Origin: an uncultured Verrucomicrobiae bacterium
Lineage (GTDB): Bacteria; Verrucomicrobiota; Verrucomicrobiia; Chthoniobacterales; UBA10450
Direction of reading: 5' to 3'
NCBI GenBank assembly: GCA_963788855.1
Contig: CAWBIE010000001.1
Coordinates: forward strand, 89,437 to 153,436
DNA length: 64,000 nucleotides
Position 1 is the first letter of the stretch. Each line of letters starts with the position of its first letter. Position numbers and translations under genes: made by a program. A model generated the notes under the pieces. The model was not told the DNA's origin. It saw nothing but the letters and a program-made list of their open reading frames with translations, and did no database searches. Positions 8,024-30,786 of this stretch are shown in pieces.

Positions 8024-9271
8024 ATGAAACGTAAGCGTGTGGTCGTTCTGGGGGCGACGGGGTCGATCGGCGAGAGTGCGCTCAAGGTTGCGCACGACAT
8101 TCCCGAACGCATGGAGATTGTCGGTCTGGCGGCCAACCGCAATGTCGAAAAGCTCGCTGCGGCCGCGAACCAGGTCCGGCCGAAGGCCGTTTGTCTGGTC
8201 GACGAATCGAAGCTCGACGCTCTGGGCAGGGCCCTCGATTACAAGCCACAGATTTTTTCTGGCGCAGCCGGGCTGTGCGAGATAGCGACCCTTAGCGAGG
8301 CCGAGATTGTGTTAATCGCAATCGTCGGGACGGGTGGATTGCGTCCGGCTCTGGCCGCGATTGCAGCGGGCAAGGATCTCGCGGTGGCGAGCAAAGAAAT
8401 TTTAGTCATGGCGGGTGAGATCGTTATGCGCGAAGCGCGCGCGAAAGGCGTGCATGTGCTTCCCGTCGATAGCGAGCACAACGCCATCTTTCAGTGTTTG
8501 GAGGGAAAATTTTCTGTCGGAAAACGCTCAACACCCAACGCTCAACGTCCAACGTCCAAGGCAGAAAATTCGGCGTTGAGCGTTGAGCGTTGGGCGTTCG
8601 ACGTTTCTGATGTGCGACGAATCATTCTCACCGCCTCGGGCGGCCCGTTTCGTAAGACGCCGCGGACGGAGTTCGATGCCATCACGGTCGAACAAGCATT
8701 AAAGCATCCGACCTGGAACATGGGTCCCAAAATTACGATCGACTCGGCTACTCTATTTAATAAGGGCCTGGAGATGATCGAAGCACACTGGTTGTTTGGC
8801 CTGGAGATGCAACGGGTGGAAGTAGTGATCCATCCGCAGAGCATTGTGCATTCGATGGTCGAATTCGTGGATGGCTCGACCGTCGCGCAGCTGAGTTACT
8901 CGGATATGTGCTTCCCTATTCAATATGCGGTGACCTGGCCGGATCGGGTCCCGAATTCACTGCCGCCGCTCGATTTCTCGAAGGTCCAGACACTCGAGTT
9001 CGAGGTTCCGCGTTACGATGACTTTCCCGCCTTGCATCTGGCACGCCGCGCGGGTGAGACCGGCGCCACGTTGCCTGCGGTCATGAACGCCGCCAACGAA
9101 GTGGCAGTGGCCGCATTCCTGGAGAAACGGGTGCGTTTTCCCCAAATCTGGCAAATTGTCGAGGGCGTCATGAATCGCCATACCGGCGTTGCGCATCCCG
9201 ATCTCGATGCAATATTGCGGGCCGATCAATGGGCGCGCCAGGAAGCGGAAAAGCTGGCCGCGGATTTGTAG
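8024..9271 (+). CDS. dxr: 1-deoxy-D-xylulose-5-phosphate reductoisomerase
   Basis: Intact 415-aa ORF: VVVLGATGSIGESAL, DSEHNAIFQCL, ILTASGGPFR, HPTWNMGPKITIDSATLFNKGLEMIEAHWLF. Carries an unusual insert in the variable loop between DSEHNAIFQ and LTASGGPF (see repeat 8522-8606). Confidence 0.93.
   Translation: MKRKRVVVLGATGSIGESALKVAHDIPERMEIVGLAANRNVEKLAAAANQVRPKAVCLVDESKLDALGRALDYKPQIFSGAAGLCEIATLSEAEIVLIAIVGTGGLRPALAAIAAGKDLAVASKEILVMAGEIVMREARAKGVHVLPVDSEHNAIFQCLEGKFSVGKRSTPNAQRPTSKAENSALSVERWAFDVSDVRRIILTASGGPFRKTPRTEFDAITVEQALKHPTWNMGPKITIDSATLFNKGLEMIEAHWLFGLEMQRVEVVIHPQSIVHSMVEFVDGSTVAQLSYSDMCFPIQYAVTWPDRVPNSLPPLDFSKVQTLEFEVPRYDDFPALHLARRAGETGATLPAVMNAANEVAVAAFLEKRVRFPQIWQIVEGVMNRHTGVAHPDLDAILRADQWARQEAEKLAADL
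8522..8606. repeat. Heptamer-built imperfect hairpin element lying in frame inside dxr
   Basis: Left arm is tandem 7-mers ACGCTCA ACACCCA ACGCTCA ACGTCCA ACGTCCA. Right arm (8573-8606) is TGAGCGT TGAGCGT TGGGCGT TCGACGT. The arms are roughly 80 percent complementary. Encodes KRSTPNAQRPTSKAENSALSVERWAFDV. Confidence 0.7.
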
Positions 9272-10830: not shown

Positions 10831-12771
10831 GTGAGGTACTGCGACTCGCCATTTTCATATCAGCGGCGCGTTTCGCGCGAGGTCATGGTCGGCAAGGTCG
10901 GCGTGGGTGGAACAAGTCCGATCCGCGTTCAATCCATGATCACGTGCGATACCATGGACACGGAAGCGTCCATCGCACAGACGATGGAATTGGCCGCGGT
11001 TGGGTGCGAGATCGTGCGCATCACGGCCCCGACCGTAAAGGACTCGCGGAATCTCGAATTGATTGTCAAAGGTCTGCGCGACCGAGGCTGCGACGTGCCA
11101 ATCGTAGCCGACATCCATTTCAAACCGGATGCGGCCATGGAAGCCGCCAAATGGGTCGAGAAAGTGCGCATCAACCCCGGGAACTACGCCGACTCGAAAA
11201 AATTCGCGATCCGCGAATACAGCGATGAGCAATATGCGGCGGAGTTGGCGCGGATTCGGGAACGCTTTGCGCCGCTGGTCGAACTTTGTCGAAGCCGCGG
11301 CATCGCCATGCGCATCGGCACGAATCACGGGTCGCTCAGCGACCGGATCATGAACCGTTATGGAGATTCTCCACTCGGCATGGTGGAGAGCGCTCTCGAG
11401 TTCGCGCGGATCGCGCGCGACCTCGATTATCACGCCTTCGTTTTCTCGATGAAGTCGAGCAACCCCAAGGTGATGATCGCGGCGTATCGGTTGCTCGTCG
11501 CGCGGCTCGACCAGGAAGGCCCGGATTGGAACTATCCGATTCATCTCGGCGTGACCGAGGCGGGGGAAGGCGAAGACGCGCGCATCAAAAGCGCGATCGG
11601 AATTGGTTCGCTCCTGGCAGACGGCATTGGCGATACCATTCGTGTTTCCCTGACGGAAGACAGCATTCACGAAATTCCGGTGGCGAAGGCCCTAATCGAT
11701 TGCGGATTGCGGATTGCCGATTGCGGAAAGAACAAATCCGAAATCCGAACTCCGGAATCCGGAATTTCCTTTGATCCATTTTCCTATCAACGCCGCGCCA
11801 CGGAGAGGATTTCTGTAGCAACCATCGGCGATCCCGGCCAAACCATTGCTCTGGGTGGAGAGGAGTTAATCCGGGTCGTCGTTAGGCAAGCGAATTTCGA
11901 CAAAATTGCCCACAAGATCGACAAGATGGGTGATTACAAGCCGGAGATCGTCTACGAGAAGGCGCAGATCGTGAAAGTGGATCCGCGCGACGATGTGGCG
12001 ATGGCGCGATTGAATGAAAGTTCGGCGGCGCAGTTCGTGACGGTAAGGGACGACGTGGATTTGCCGGTGATCGCGGCGTTTCGGCTGCTGGCCGCCAGGT
12101 TGGATGCGCGGCATCCGATTCTTTTAAAAGACACGCTGGGCTGGGTGCCGACTCAGAATGACGAAGCACGAATGACGAATGACGAAGGAAGTCCGAATGA
12201 CCGAATGACGAAGGAGGCACCCGGTGATTTCGTTCGGGATTCGAGCTTCGTCATTCCTTCGACATTCGACATTCGTCATTCGTCATTCCTGGAGACGCTA
12301 CTCGTAGCGTCGGCCAACATCGGCTCGCTCCTTTGCGATGGGATCGGGGACGCTGTTCTGGTGCAAGGCGAAGAGGCCCCCGGTCAGGCCCTGCGACTTT
12401 CGTATAATATACTGCAGGCGGCGGGCTCGCGGATTTTCAAGACCGATTACGTGGCCTGTCCGTCCTGCGGGCGCACCTTGTTCAATCTTCAAACCACCAC
12501 CGCGAAAATCAAAGCCGCAACTCTGCATCTCAAAGGCGTCAAGATCGCCATCATGGGCTGCATCGTGAACGGTCCGGGCGAAATGGCGGATGCGGATTTC
12601 GGTTACGTGGGCGGCGCTCCCGGAAAAGTGAATCTCTATGTCGGGAAAACGCCGGTGAAATTCAATATCCCGGAGGCCGAAGCGGTCGATCGTTTGCAGG
12701 ATCTCATTCGCGAGCACGGCAAGTGGATTGAACCGGCGGGGCAACCGGCCACGGCCGACCTTTCGAACTGA
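10831..12771 (+). CDS. ispG: 4-hydroxy-3-methylbut-2-enyl diphosphate synthase IspG, long form with internal insertion domain
   Basis: Intact 646-aa ORF. N-terminal TIM-barrel part (IRVQSMITCDT, VRITAPT, PIVADIHF, RINPGN) and C-terminal 4Fe-4S part (ACPSCGRT, MGCIVNGPGEMADADFGYVG) are separated by ~270 aa, as in long-form (plant/Bacteroidetes-type) IspG. Confidence 0.9.
   Translation: MRYCDSPFSYQRRVSREVMVGKVGVGGTSPIRVQSMITCDTMDTEASIAQTMELAAVGCEIVRITAPTVKDSRNLELIVKGLRDRGCDVPIVADIHFKPDAAMEAAKWVEKVRINPGNYADSKKFAIREYSDEQYAAELARIRERFAPLVELCRSRGIAMRIGTNHGSLSDRIMNRYGDSPLGMVESALEFARIARDLDYHAFVFSMKSSNPKVMIAAYRLLVARLDQEGPDWNYPIHLGVTEAGEGEDARIKSAIGIGSLLADGIGDTIRVSLTEDSIHEIPVAKALIDCGLRIADCGKNKSEIRTPESGISFDPFSYQRRATERISVATIGDPGQTIALGGEELIRVVVRQANFDKIAHKIDKMGDYKPEIVYEKAQIVKVDPRDDVAMARLNESSAAQFVTVRDDVDLPVIAAFRLLAARLDARHPILLKDTLGWVPTQNDEARMTNDEGSPNDRMTKEAPGDFVRDSSFVIPSTFDIRHSSFLETLLVASANIGSLLCDGIGDAVLVQGEEAPGQALRLSYNILQAAGSRIFKTDYVACPSCGRTLFNLQTTTAKIKAATLHLKGVKIAIMGCIVNGPGEMADADFGYVGGAPGKVNLYVGKTPVKFNIPEAEAVDRLQDLIREHGKWIEPAGQPATADLSN
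11694..11767. repeat. Heptamer-built hairpin element (GATTGCG / CCGAAAT family) in frame inside ispG
   Basis: Left arm aatcGATTGCG GATTGCG GATTGCC GATTGCG GA. Right arm TCCGAAA TCCGAAC TCCGGAA TCCGGAA. The arms are partly complementary. Encodes LIDCGLRIADCGKNKSEIRTPESGISF. Confidence 0.6.
12156..12289. repeat. Heptamer-built hairpin element (GAATGAC family) in frame inside ispG
   Basis: Left arm is repeats of GAATGAC(G) (gaatgacgaagcacgaatgacgaatgacgaagg...ccgaatgacgaagg). Right arm cttcgtcattccttcgacattcgacattcgtcattcgtcattcc is its approximate reverse complement. Encodes NDEARMTNDEGSPNDRMTKE...SSFVIPSTFDIRHSSF. Confidence 0.7.
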
Positions 12772-30196: not shown

Positions 30197-30786
30197 GAGT
30201 GATCGCGGGTTCCGCCGGCGGAATCCAGCTCGAGGTTCCGAAGAGTAAAGTGCGGCCGACCATGGATCGGGTGAAGGCCGCGATCTTTTCGAGTCTGGGC
30301 GACGAGATCGCGGACGCCCGCGTGCTCGATCTCTTCGCCGGCAGCGGCGCGCTCGGGATTGAAGCGCTCAGCCGCGGCGCGGCCTCCGCTCTCTTTGTCG
30401 ATCAGGATCGAAAGTCGACCCTGGCGATCGAGAAGAATCTGGCTAAAACAAAACTCGAAGGACGCGTGCGCCAGCAGGATGTCTTTGCTTTTTTGCGGCG
30501 CGCGGACTCGGTCTTCCATATCATCTTCGCCGATCCTCCTTACGAACAAACGGAGTCCGGAGAACGCTTCACCGACAAACTGTTGACCGATGAATTCCTA
30601 CCCCGACTCTTGGAGCCGGGAGGAATCTTTGTCTTGGAAAAGCGACCATCCGAACAACTTCCCGCGACGAAATTCTGGAATGTCATTCGCGCAAAGACGT
30701 ATGGTGCGACCGAGGTCCTCTTTCTCTCCGCGATCCGGGATTTGCAGTCCGCAATCCGCAATCCGAAATCCGAAATGCCTTCGTGA
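30193..30786 (+). CDS. rsmD: 16S rRNA (guanine966-N2)-methyltransferase RsmD
   Basis: MRVIAGSAGGIQLEVPKSKVRPTMDRVKAAIFSSLG, VLDLFAGSGALGIEALSRGA, IIFADPPY. The C-terminal tail is encoded by a heptamer array (see 30749-30776). Confidence 0.88.
   Translation: MRVIAGSAGGIQLEVPKSKVRPTMDRVKAAIFSSLGDEIADARVLDLFAGSGALGIEALSRGAASALFVDQDRKSTLAIEKNLAKTKLEGRVRQQDVFAFLRRADSVFHIIFADPPYEQTESGERFTDKLLTDEFLPRLLEPGGIFVLEKRPSEQLPATKFWNVIRAKTYGATEVLFLSAIRDLQSAIRNPKSEMPS
30749..30776 (+). repeat. Tandem heptamer array CCGCAAT x2 + CCGAAAT x2 forming the 3' end of rsmD
   Basis: ccgcaat ccgcaat ccgaaat ccgaaat encodes SAIRNPKSEM. Same unit family as the ispG element at 11694-11767. Confidence 0.7.

What the first reader, a model, noticed from the sequence alone, without database searches (positions are those of the whole stretch)
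8522..8606. Heptamer-built hairpin element sitting in frame inside the essential gene dxr
An ~85-nt segment consists of five tandem 7-mers (ACGCTCA-like), a 16-nt spacer, and about four and a half tandem 7-mers that are their approximate reverse complements. It lies in the loop between the conserved DSEHNAIFQ and LTASGGPF blocks. That loop is about 40 residues here against about 20 in E. coli Dxr (from memory). The ORF stays open, so the element is translated as KRSTPNAQRPTSKAENSALSVERWAFDV. A palindromic, repeat-built insert tolerated inside an essential MEP-pathway enzyme is unusual. It could act at the DNA level (a MITE/REP-like invader) or the RNA level (an intragenic hairpin affecting translation or stability).
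Basis: seen in the sequence. Interest (0 to 1): 0.62.

Follow-up and report, generated by a model that had tools for sequence, protein, structure and literature searches.

The report
Translated heptamer-repeat hairpin inside dxr
A 90-base DNA hairpin built from 7-base repeats sits in frame in a floppy surface loop of the essential enzyme Dxr of a soil Verrucomicrobium. It is one copy of a genome-wide, lineage-specific repeat family that keeps refilling this same loop in related bacteria, so it looks like tolerated repeat DNA and not an adaptation of the enzyme.

Summary
At 8522-8606, five AACGYYC-type heptamers face about 4.5 reverse-complement units. The RNA fold is -52 kcal/mol (z = -7.4). 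The element is in frame in dxr, between DSEHNAIFQ and LTASGGPF.

The insert is lineage-specific. About 95 Verrucomicrobiota Dxr orthologues have a 30-33-residue segment, against 61 here. AlphaFold2 models the insert as a disordered surface loop.

It is not unique. The genome holds 183 period-7 arrays, mostly intergenic, and 18 strong heptamer hairpins. Two of these lie in ispG, and there are in-frame copies in UbiD-like, ThiC, ArgJ, dihydroorotase and aconitase genes. The AACGYYC word occurs in 104 of 151 genomes of this Chthoniobacterales family and almost nowhere else in the phylum.

Within one sister genus the same dxr slot is empty, or holds 2-5 AACGYYC units, a different-word heptamer hairpin, a GC-rich palindrome or a nested insert. 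Its length is always a multiple of three, and the state tracks the genome's repeat load.

Best reading: translated, tolerated repeat DNA in a permissive inter-domain slot. It resembles RPEs in outcome and STRR/heptamer SSRs in build. A dedicated RNA function is unlikely, because the hairpin is lost in several relatives. The copying mechanism is unknown.

The parts
8024..9271 (+). dxr (1-deoxy-D-xylulose-5-phosphate reductoisomerase), 415 codons, intact through the element
   Evidence: ORF list. Pfam PF02670/PF08436/PF13288. PDB 4zn6_A, E = 1.9e-95. AF2 model mean pLDDT 90.7.
8522..8559 (+). Left arm: about five AACGYYC heptamers (AACGCTC AACACCC AACGCTC AACGTCC AACGTCC AA). No stop codon in any frame.
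8560..8568 (+). Hairpin loop (GGCAGAAAA; 9-16 nt depending on register). The motif GCAGARARTTCG is shared with the dxr inserts of G012, L060 and L061.
8569..8606 (+). Right arm: about 4.5 reverse-complement heptamers (GCGTTGA GCGTTGA GCGTTGG GCGTTCG ACGTT). The unit whose TGA would fall in frame reads TGG.
   Evidence: frame
8516..8611 (+). Full predicted stem-loop, including 6-8 extra base pairs made with flanking codons
   Evidence: strand folding: -52.3 kcal/mol, z = -7.42
8510..8602 (+). Approximate lineage-specific insert (93 nt, 31 codons, residues about 163-193). The boundaries are ambiguous because TTTCTG occurs at 8511-8516 and 8604-8609. AF2 models it as disordered.
   Evidence: Orthologue alignment. 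pLDDT < 50 for residues 164-188. Direct repeat.
8503..8509 (+). GGGAAAA in X XXY YYZ phase, 6 nt upstream of the stem. This is formally a -1 frameshift configuration. The -1 frame stops after 25 codons. It is not conserved in relatives.
   Evidence: relatives' sequences
10831..12771 (+). ispG (GcpE, long form), same operon (cdsA-dxr-rseP-ispG), carrying two further heptamer hairpins
11695..11765 (+). ispG element 1: GATTGCG x4 facing AATCCGA x4.6, in frame
   Evidence: -27 kcal/mol
12156..12290 (+). ispG element 2: GAATGAC-type arm facing TTCGTCA-type arm, in frame. It belongs to a dispersed family of about 130 nt with full-length paralogues (C4:758513-758638, 86% over 132 nt).
30744..30776 (+). 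Single heptamer array (GCAATCC x4.7) at the 5' edge of a Kdo-transferase-like ORF

Best explanation
The segment is one copy of a family-specific heptanucleotide-repeat palindrome. Its word is AACGYYC and its reverse complement. The copy lies in the linker between the NADPH-binding and catalytic parts of Dxr.

Shown:
- It forms a very stable hairpin.
- It is in frame and stop-free, and it is modelled as a disordered surface loop.
- It is absent from most orthologues.
- The genome and its family are loaded with period-7 arrays and heptamer hairpins, mostly intergenic.
- The same dxr loop in related genera and species is a 'slot' that is empty or holds varying numbers of AACGYYC units, other heptamer hairpins or other palindromes. 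Its length is always a multiple of three, and its state follows the repeat load of each genome.

Inferred:
- Arrays grow and shrink by replication slippage, with 7-nt units favoured.
- Mirror arms arise and are kept complementary by intra-strand template switching (palindrome self-correction).
- Copies exchange sequence with, or are re-seeded from, the dispersed family.
- Selection only filters for frame, absence of stops and a harmless location.

On this view the 31 extra residues do nothing for the enzyme, and the mRNA hairpin is a by-product.
For: Hairpin and arrays.

Lineage-specific insert at one site.

Disordered loop. The insert has no counterpart in any solved DXR.

Genome-wide period-7 excess: 183 arrays, against 73 for period 6 and 19 for period 8. 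Of the 134 merged elements, 67 are intergenic, 30 lie at ORF edges and only about 15 are deep inside genes, although about 82% of the genome is coding.

Other in-frame copies: ispG x2, UbiD-like, ThiC, ArgJ, dihydroorotase, aconitase.

The word is family-specific. It occurs in 104 of 151 genomes and 28 of 36 genera of the family. Among 119 other Verrucomicrobiota genomes, one has it in number and three have single hits.

Genomes with a dxr insert carry more AACGYYC arrays (Mann-Whitney p = 0.008). Period-7 density is 61 and 52 per Mb in the insert-bearing G000 and G017, against 15 per Mb in the insert-free G006.

Genome-specific unit variants are shared between the dxr copy and dispersed copies. 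AACGCCG is found in G016 and not in its congeners.

In genus g17, 13 species show slot lengths of 39, 42, 45, 57, 78, 81, 84, 114 and 123 nt with four different kinds of filling. Empty slots occur in genomes with 0-1 arrays.

The hairpin is not conserved. z = -4.4 in G000 and -2.8 in G017, but +0.9 in G016 and 0.0 in G011.
Against: The element is 75% identical between G000 and L060, while four-fold synonymous sites of dxr are near saturation (0.39-0.48 identity). Four of 36 stem pairs also show compensatory double changes. Simple neutral decay of an old insert does not predict this. Concerted evolution, re-insertion or selection must be invoked.

Three of about 15 deep intragenic elements lie in dxr and ispG, within about 4.7 kb of one operon (Poisson p about 1e-6, about 1e-3 after correcting for windows).

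No enzyme or transposition mechanism has been identified. G011's array word is unique in its genome, so not every filling is a copy of a dispersed family.

Gene calls rest on my own crude codon-usage model.
Confidence: 0.75

Rival explanations
1. The hairpin is a selected cis-acting RNA or DNA structure inside the cdsA-dxr-rseP-ispG operon. It could be a ribosome pause at a domain boundary that aids co-translational folding, an RNase or stability determinant that sets relative expression of the operon genes, or a binding array for a lineage-specific protein.
For: The stem is very stable. Comparison of G000 and L060 shows four compensatory double changes, and the element is conserved above the synonymous background. 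There are three hairpins in one operon. All three sit at domain junctions.
Against: The hairpin is lost while the insert persists in G016, L059, L061 and most of genus g17. The slot is empty in most of the family, and it is filled by unrelated sequences in G011, G013, L062, L063, G113 and G140. There is no U-tract and no Rfam family. The same kind of element is mostly intergenic and also sits in unrelated genes. Domain junctions are also where any insert is most tolerated.
Confidence: 0.12
2. The element arose purely in situ. Native codons of the loop (GGCAAA... and ...GGACRTTCGC, which resemble the array ends) were expanded by polymerase slippage and then mirrored. No copy arrived from elsewhere.
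For: G011's slot holds a CGATCCY array found nowhere else in its genome. The empty LEGK...DIRR class contains GGCAAA and GGACATT, which overlap the array termini. Heptamer SSRs are thought to be favoured by slippage (Mrazek 2007, as cited in PMC4679880 and PMC4692102).
Against: The same AACGYYC word recurs at many unrelated loci in 104 genomes. It also recurs in ispG of G001 and G009. Genome-specific variants are shared between dxr and dispersed copies. ispG element 2 has full-length paralogues that include the loop.
Confidence: 0.08
3. The element is a recoding signal. The in-phase GGGAAAA, a 6-nt spacer and the hairpin would drive -1 frameshifting to a truncated product of about 187 residues comprising the N-terminal domain. 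Alternatively, the ribosome hops between the in-frame TCT codons at 8513 and 8606.
For: The geometry is formally canonical. A hop would give a loop of the ancestral length.
Against: The slippery site and the left TTTCTG are absent from G012, G017 and L060. The zero frame is open, with the potential in-frame TGA read as TGG, which is what translation through the element requires. All 30 or more slot variants are multiples of three.
Confidence: 0.03
4. The element is an assembly artefact or a pseudogene in an error-prone long-read MAG.
For: Earlier notes say this assembly has many 1-nt indels. Completeness is scored at only 63%.
Against: The frame is intact. Homologous inserts at the same codon occur in more than 15 independent MAGs from different studies.
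Confidence: 0.02

Closest known systems
Rickettsia palindromic elements (RPE)
   Same: Both are dispersed hairpin-forming repeats of about 100-150 bp found in intergenic and protein-coding regions. Both are inserted in frame in housekeeping genes, are shared by related species at the same site and proliferate in particular lineages (PMC1779305: PheT carries a 63-84-bp RPE-7-like insert in all Rickettsia).
   Different: RPEs are defined consensus sequences, not arrays of 7-nt units. Here the arms are tandem heptamers whose number and word change, the loops are not conserved, and the slot is refilled by unrelated fillings. The host is a free-living soil Verrucomicrobium, not a reduced intracellular genome. 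No sequence relationship was tested or is expected.
Heptanucleotide simple-sequence repeats: cyanobacterial STRR, Beggiatoaceae TAACTGA, Xanthomonas/Nostoc GGGAATC
   Same: Both are tandem 7-nt units over-represented relative to other periods. Both are mostly intergenic and highly variable between close relatives, with mixed words in one array. Polymerase slippage is proposed as the cause (PMC4679880 and PMC4692102). G000 also has GGGGATT arrays at C5:63838-63885, the word studied in Nostoc.
   Different: The words are different (AACGYYC, AATGACG and others) and the phylum is different. The passages I read in those papers did not describe mirror-image pairing into long hairpins or translated in-frame copies in essential enzymes.
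REP / REPIN elements mobilised by RAYT (IS200-like Y1 transposases)
   Same: Both are short palindromic repeats dispersed through a genome. This genome has 9 PF01797 hits.
   Different: The RAYT genes here are flanked by their own GTAG/CTAC-type REPs, not by heptamers. The dxr element has no GTAG tetranucleotide. Proximity of arrays to RAYT genes is not significant.
MITEs
   Same: Both have inverted terminal arms, are small and non-coding, and occur in multiple copies.
   Different: There is no conserved core, no cognate transposase and no consistent target-site duplication. TTTCTG flanks the element only in G000.

Membership tests
Heptanucleotide SSR / STRR-type arrays | Head-to-tail tandem units of 7 nt, three or more copies | tested here: met
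   TRF period-7 rows at 8523-8559 and 8573-8598
Heptanucleotide SSR / STRR-type arrays | Genome-wide over-representation of period 7 relative to neighbouring periods | tested here: met
   183 arrays at period 7, against 73 (period 6), 19 (period 8) and 10 (period 9). G017 shows the same pattern; G006 does not.
Heptanucleotide SSR / STRR-type arrays | Mostly intergenic location | tested here: met
   67 of 134 elements are intergenic and 30 lie at ORF edges, in a genome that is about 82% coding
Heptanucleotide SSR / STRR-type arrays | The cyanobacterial STRR words (CCCCAGT, TTGGTCA, CAACAGT; from my own knowledge) | tested here: not met
   The words here are AACGYYC, AATGACG, ACCTCTG and others. 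So this is the same kind of element, not the same family.
RPE-like translated palindromic repeats | Hairpin-forming repeat with several copies in the genome | tested here: met
   z = -7.4. Arm-level copies occur at 7 other loci. ispG element 2 has full-length paralogues.
RPE-like translated palindromic repeats | In-frame insertion in a conserved protein at a surface site, absent from orthologues outside the lineage | tested here: met
RPE-like translated palindromic repeats | Sequence homology to a Rickettsiales RPE family | not tested
   No RPE models were available. None is expected given the heptamer build.
REP/REPIN-RAYT | Conserved GTAG-type head, with copies flanking a RAYT gene | tested here: not met
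   The flanks of 8 PF01797 genes carry GTAG/CTAC REPs unrelated to heptamers
MITE | Target-site duplication and a conserved internal sequence | tested here: inconclusive
   A TTTCTG direct repeat is seen only in G000. Loops differ between AATGACG copies, but some copies align full-length.
Programmed -1 frameshift signal | In-phase slippery heptamer, 5-9-nt spacer, stable downstream structure | tested here: met
   GGGAAAA at 8503-8509, 6-nt spacer, stem from 8516
Programmed -1 frameshift signal | Conservation of the signal in relatives, and a meaningful -1 product | tested here: not met
   The slippery site is absent from G012, G017 and L060. The -1 frame ends after 25 codons.

The most novel reading that the evidence does not exclude
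This Chthoniobacterales family may have an undescribed, word-agnostic process that writes heptamer arrays and their mirror images, or inserts structured repeats preferentially into existing hairpins. Such a process would keep a few 'hairpin slots' in essential genes (dxr, ispG, UbiD-like) permanently occupied and rapidly turning over. The compensatory arm changes and the conservation above the synonymous background would then reflect an active copying or correction mechanism, or a host use of the hairpins, and not passive tolerance.
Probability: 0.15. Interest if true: 0.8.

Novelty: new variant of a known kind. Interest (0 to 1): 0.5.

Why it matters
The case shows how far an essential, textbook enzyme can absorb junk-like structured DNA. 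The dxr linker accepts 0 to 31 extra residues of arbitrary repeat-encoded sequence, and the filling changes between species of one genus.

There are three practical consequences. First, it marks a permissive site in Dxr, which is an antibiotic and herbicide target, and in IspG. Second, it warns annotators and structure predictors that odd low-complexity loops in Verrucomicrobia are translated repeats. Third, it gives a natural system (slot states compared with genome-wide repeat load) for studying how heptamer arrays and palindromes are generated. The papers I found mention only a polymerase-slippage proposal for that process.

Tried and rejected
- RAYT/IS200 as the mobilising enzyme. There are 9 PF01797 hits, but their flanks carry GTAG-type REPs, not heptamers. 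Only 4 of 9 lie within 3.5 kb of an array.
- Known RNA family. Rfam gave only sub-threshold hits to miRNA-hairpin models (21-27 bits, against cut-offs of 70-105).
- Intrinsic terminator at the dxr hairpin. None found.
- G011's CGATCCY word as an abundant family in its genome. It occurs only in dxr.
- A single origin of the insert on a Dxr tree. The tree is poorly resolved. It needs 5 changes, and the well-supported branches force at least 2. So I cannot separate repeated gain from repeated loss.
- Consensus RNA structure over four orthologous hairpins. The alignment register is ambiguous in repeats, so I used only the pairwise G000-L060 comparison.
- Literature. No paper in the library contains GAATGAC arrays or describes repeats of Udaeobacter or Chthoniobacterales.

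Full report
**1. The observation**

Window 8522-8606 reads AACGCTC AACACCC AACGCTC AACGTCC AACGTCC AA / GGCAGAAAA / TTCG GCGTTGA GCGTTGA GCGTTGG GCGTTCG ACGTT.
- Tandem Repeats Finder finds period-7 arrays on both sides.
- The repeat finder finds inverted arms of 38 nt, 79% complementary and 9 nt apart.
- As RNA the segment folds to -52.3 kcal/mol, against -26.8 +/- 3.4 for dinucleotide shuffles (z = -7.4, 0 of 200 as good). The stem runs from 8516 to 8611.
- It lies in a single open frame, 8024-9271. This is Dxr by Pfam and by 29 solved DXR structures (best 4zn6_A, 1.9e-95).
- The operon is cdsA-dxr-rseP-ispG.

**2. The insert is lineage-specific and lies in a disordered loop**

The DSEHNAIFQ...LTASGGPF segment is 61 residues here.
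- It is 30-33 residues in 21 of 27 genomes of the same order.
- It is 30-33 residues in 74 of 80 further Verrucomicrobiota loci. By their record titles these are MAGs of Chthoniobacterales, Akkermansiaceae, Verrucomicrobiales and others.
- Every PDB alignment breaks at query residues 164/194.
- An AlphaFold2 model built on a 26-sequence alignment is confident overall (pLDDT 90.7, pTM 0.88). Residues 164-188 score below 50 and have no secondary structure. They lie between helix 150-160 and strand 197-204.

**3. It is not unique: the genome is full of heptamer arrays**

The window's genome has 3.01 Mb in 6 contigs at 58% GC.
- My scan counts 183 period-7 arrays, against 73 at period 6, 19 at period 8 and 10 at period 9.
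- Many words are used (AATGACG, ACCTCTG, AACGYYC, AATCCGC, ACTGGAT and others). Words drift gradually along single arrays.
- Merged, these give 134 elements. With a rough codon-usage gene model (about 82% coding), 67 are intergenic, 30 touch ORF edges and about 15 lie deep in genes.
- Eighteen are strong hairpins. Four of these are deep intragenic: dxr, two in ispG (11695-11765 and 12156-12290) and one in a UbiD-like gene.
- Single in-frame arrays also sit in ThiC, ArgJ, dihydroorotase, aconitase and a membrane TPR protein.
- ispG element 2 has full-length paralogues that include the loop, for example 86% over 132 nt at C4:758513-758638. The dxr element matches other loci only at arm level.

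**4. Distribution of the word**

- AACGYYC x3 occurs in 104 of 151 genomes and 28 of 36 genera of the family, with up to 465 hits in one genome. The reversed-pattern control gives about zero.
- Among 119 other genomes of the phylum, one has it in number and three have single hits.
- GAATGAC x3 occurs in 49 of 151 family genomes.
- Counts range from 0 to 90 within single genera.
- Period-7 density is 61 per Mb (G000) and 52 per Mb (G017), both with a dxr insert. It is 15 per Mb in the insert-free G006, which shows no period-7 excess.

**5. The dxr loop is a 'slot'**

Inserts at exactly this position occur in six genera among the first 27 relatives.
- G017, G012 and G016 carry AACGYYC units.
- G011 carries a CGATCCY array that is unique in its genome.
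- G013 carries non-repeat sequence.
- Further cases are L059-L063. L060 is a near-perfect hairpin of -64 kcal/mol with the same loop motif as G000 and G012.
- Insert-bearers are not monophyletic on a poorly resolved Dxr tree.
- They carry more AACGYYC arrays genome-wide (p = 0.008).

The decisive data come from one sister genus, g17, with 13 species.
- The slot is 39-45 nt in the three genomes with 0-1 arrays. One of them keeps an LDSQRE footprint.
- It is 57 nt with two units in one species.
- It is 78-84 nt with a single arm of about five units in six species.
- It is 114 nt with a REP-like sequence nested in the array in one species.
- It is 123 nt with a different-word hairpin (GGGTTCA/CTGAAAC, -43 kcal/mol) in one species.
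- It is 81 nt with a GC-rich palindrome in one species.

Every length is a multiple of three. The unit variant in G016's dxr copy (AACGCCG) recurs at seven other loci of G016 but is absent from two congeners. The ispG slots behave the same way. Site 2 holds heptamer hairpins or an unrelated palindrome in five genomes. Site 1 holds AACGYYC units in G001 and G009.

**6. What this means**

The insert is translated. All of the 30 or more variants keep the frame, and in G000 the one right-arm unit whose TGA would be in frame reads TGG. TGG-type units are common in the family, so this single case is weak evidence on its own.

The insert is not needed by Dxr, since most relatives lack it.

No particular sequence or hairpin is conserved. 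Folding z-scores are -4.4 (G000), -2.8 (G017), -1.9 (G012), -1.4 (G013), 0.0 (G011) and +0.9 (G016).

The most economical reading is tolerated repeat DNA in a permissive inter-domain linker. The process that generates it is active in genomes with a high heptamer load.

**7. What does not fit simple neutrality**

- dxr four-fold sites are near saturation between genera (0.39-0.48 identity). Yet the G000 and L060 elements are 75% identical. Of 36 stem pairs, 25 are unchanged, 4 changed on one side compatibly, 4 changed on both sides compensatorily, and 3 are broken.
- Genome-specific variants are shared with dispersed copies. This points to concerted evolution or re-seeding plus palindrome self-correction, and not to selection on an RNA. 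Selection is not excluded.
- Three intragenic hairpins in one operon is more than chance predicts. This may simply reflect unusually permissive linkers.

**8. Mechanism candidates examined**

- The nine RAYT-like genes have their own GTAG-type REPs.
- Rfam gives nothing above threshold.
- There is no terminator tail.
- An in-phase GGGAAAA lies 6 nt before the stem, which is formally a -1 frameshift site. It is not conserved, and the -1 frame stops after 25 codons.
- Native GGCAAA and GGACRTT codons overlap the array termini. They might seed insertion or expansion by microhomology. This is inference only.

**9. Comparison with what is known**

In outcome the element resembles Rickettsia palindromic elements (PMC1779305). 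In build it resembles heptanucleotide SSRs and STRRs (PMC4679880, PMC4692102). I found no paper describing heptamer-armed hairpins in Verrucomicrobia.

Earlier notes of this scan report the same phenomenon in at least 13 other genomes. Those are unchecked AI notes. They agree with my reading but are not independent evidence.

**10. Limits**

- Gene context rests on my own ORF model.
- The genome is a MAG scored at 63% completeness, and earlier notes report 1-nt assembly errors.

**11. Verdict**

The feature is real. It is a new variant of known kinds and most likely non-adaptive. It is moderately interesting as a clear, quantifiable example of a repeat 'slot' in an essential enzyme.

Noticed in passing
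G000 C5:189582-193106 (-), outside the window; locus L139:583-4053:-: alaS is one open frame of 1157-1175 codons with a domain of about 210 residues resembling a Y1/IS200 (RAYT) transposase inserted in frame. It lies between the catalytic and editing parts (Pfam Y1_Tnp, residues 485-582, 20.1 bits, just under the 23-bit cut-off; motif IMPDHVHAL). REP-like low-complexity peptides flank it. G007 (1329-codon ORF) and G004 (1236-codon ORF) align contiguously across it, so it is shared by at least three genera. Other relatives lack residues 443-652 in alaS and encode them as stand-alone genes.
   Followed up: partly
window 10831-12771 (ispG); relatives' loci L032-L050: Both ispG insert sites are slots too. 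Site 2 (HPILLKD...FLxTLL) holds a GAATGAC hairpin in G000, other repeats in G011 and G002, and an unrelated palindrome (HSERSEAKRN...EESR...LRSAQ) in G009 and G003. Site 1 holds AACGYYC units (NAQRPTS) in G001 and G009.
   Followed up: partly
G000 C1:538150-538650 and flanks: A RAYT-like gene with its GTAG-type REPs lies between two inverted AATGACG-type heptamer arms. It looks as if it was inserted into the loop of a heptamer hairpin. A REP-like sequence is likewise nested in the dxr array of G128.
   Followed up: no
G000 C1:244416-245300; C4:66808-67270; C1:720837-721428: Pairs of AACGYYC arrays, inverted in two cases and direct in one, bracket single small genes of 0.4-0.8 kb. The arrays lie within about 60 nt of the start and stop codons. 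This looks like cassettes, or like 5'/3' UTR arrays able to pair.
   Followed up: no
G000 C5:550859-551004, C2:193700-194025, C1:595537-595572, C4:597109-597148, C1:370118-370150, C3:36806-36834: In-frame heptamer-derived inserts occur in a UbiD-like decarboxylase (49 residues, -77.6 kcal/mol hairpin), ThiC (several), ArgJ, dihydroorotase, aconitase and a TPR membrane protein.
   Followed up: partly
G243 (another family of the phylum): This is the only genome outside the family with many AACGYYC arrays (24 hits, 22 on one strand). Possible explanations are horizontal spread or convergence.
   Followed up: no
G000 C5:27908-28053 and C5:63759-63885: There is a long pure array (CTGACCT x about 20). 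Another array drifts stepwise from CGAATGA through CGAATGG and GAATTGT to GGGGATT, the G-rich word studied in Nostoc.
   Followed up: no
window 30744-30776: A GCAATCC x4.7 array lies at the 5' edge of a Kdo-transferase-like ORF, probably in the 5' UTR or N-terminal leader.
   Followed up: no
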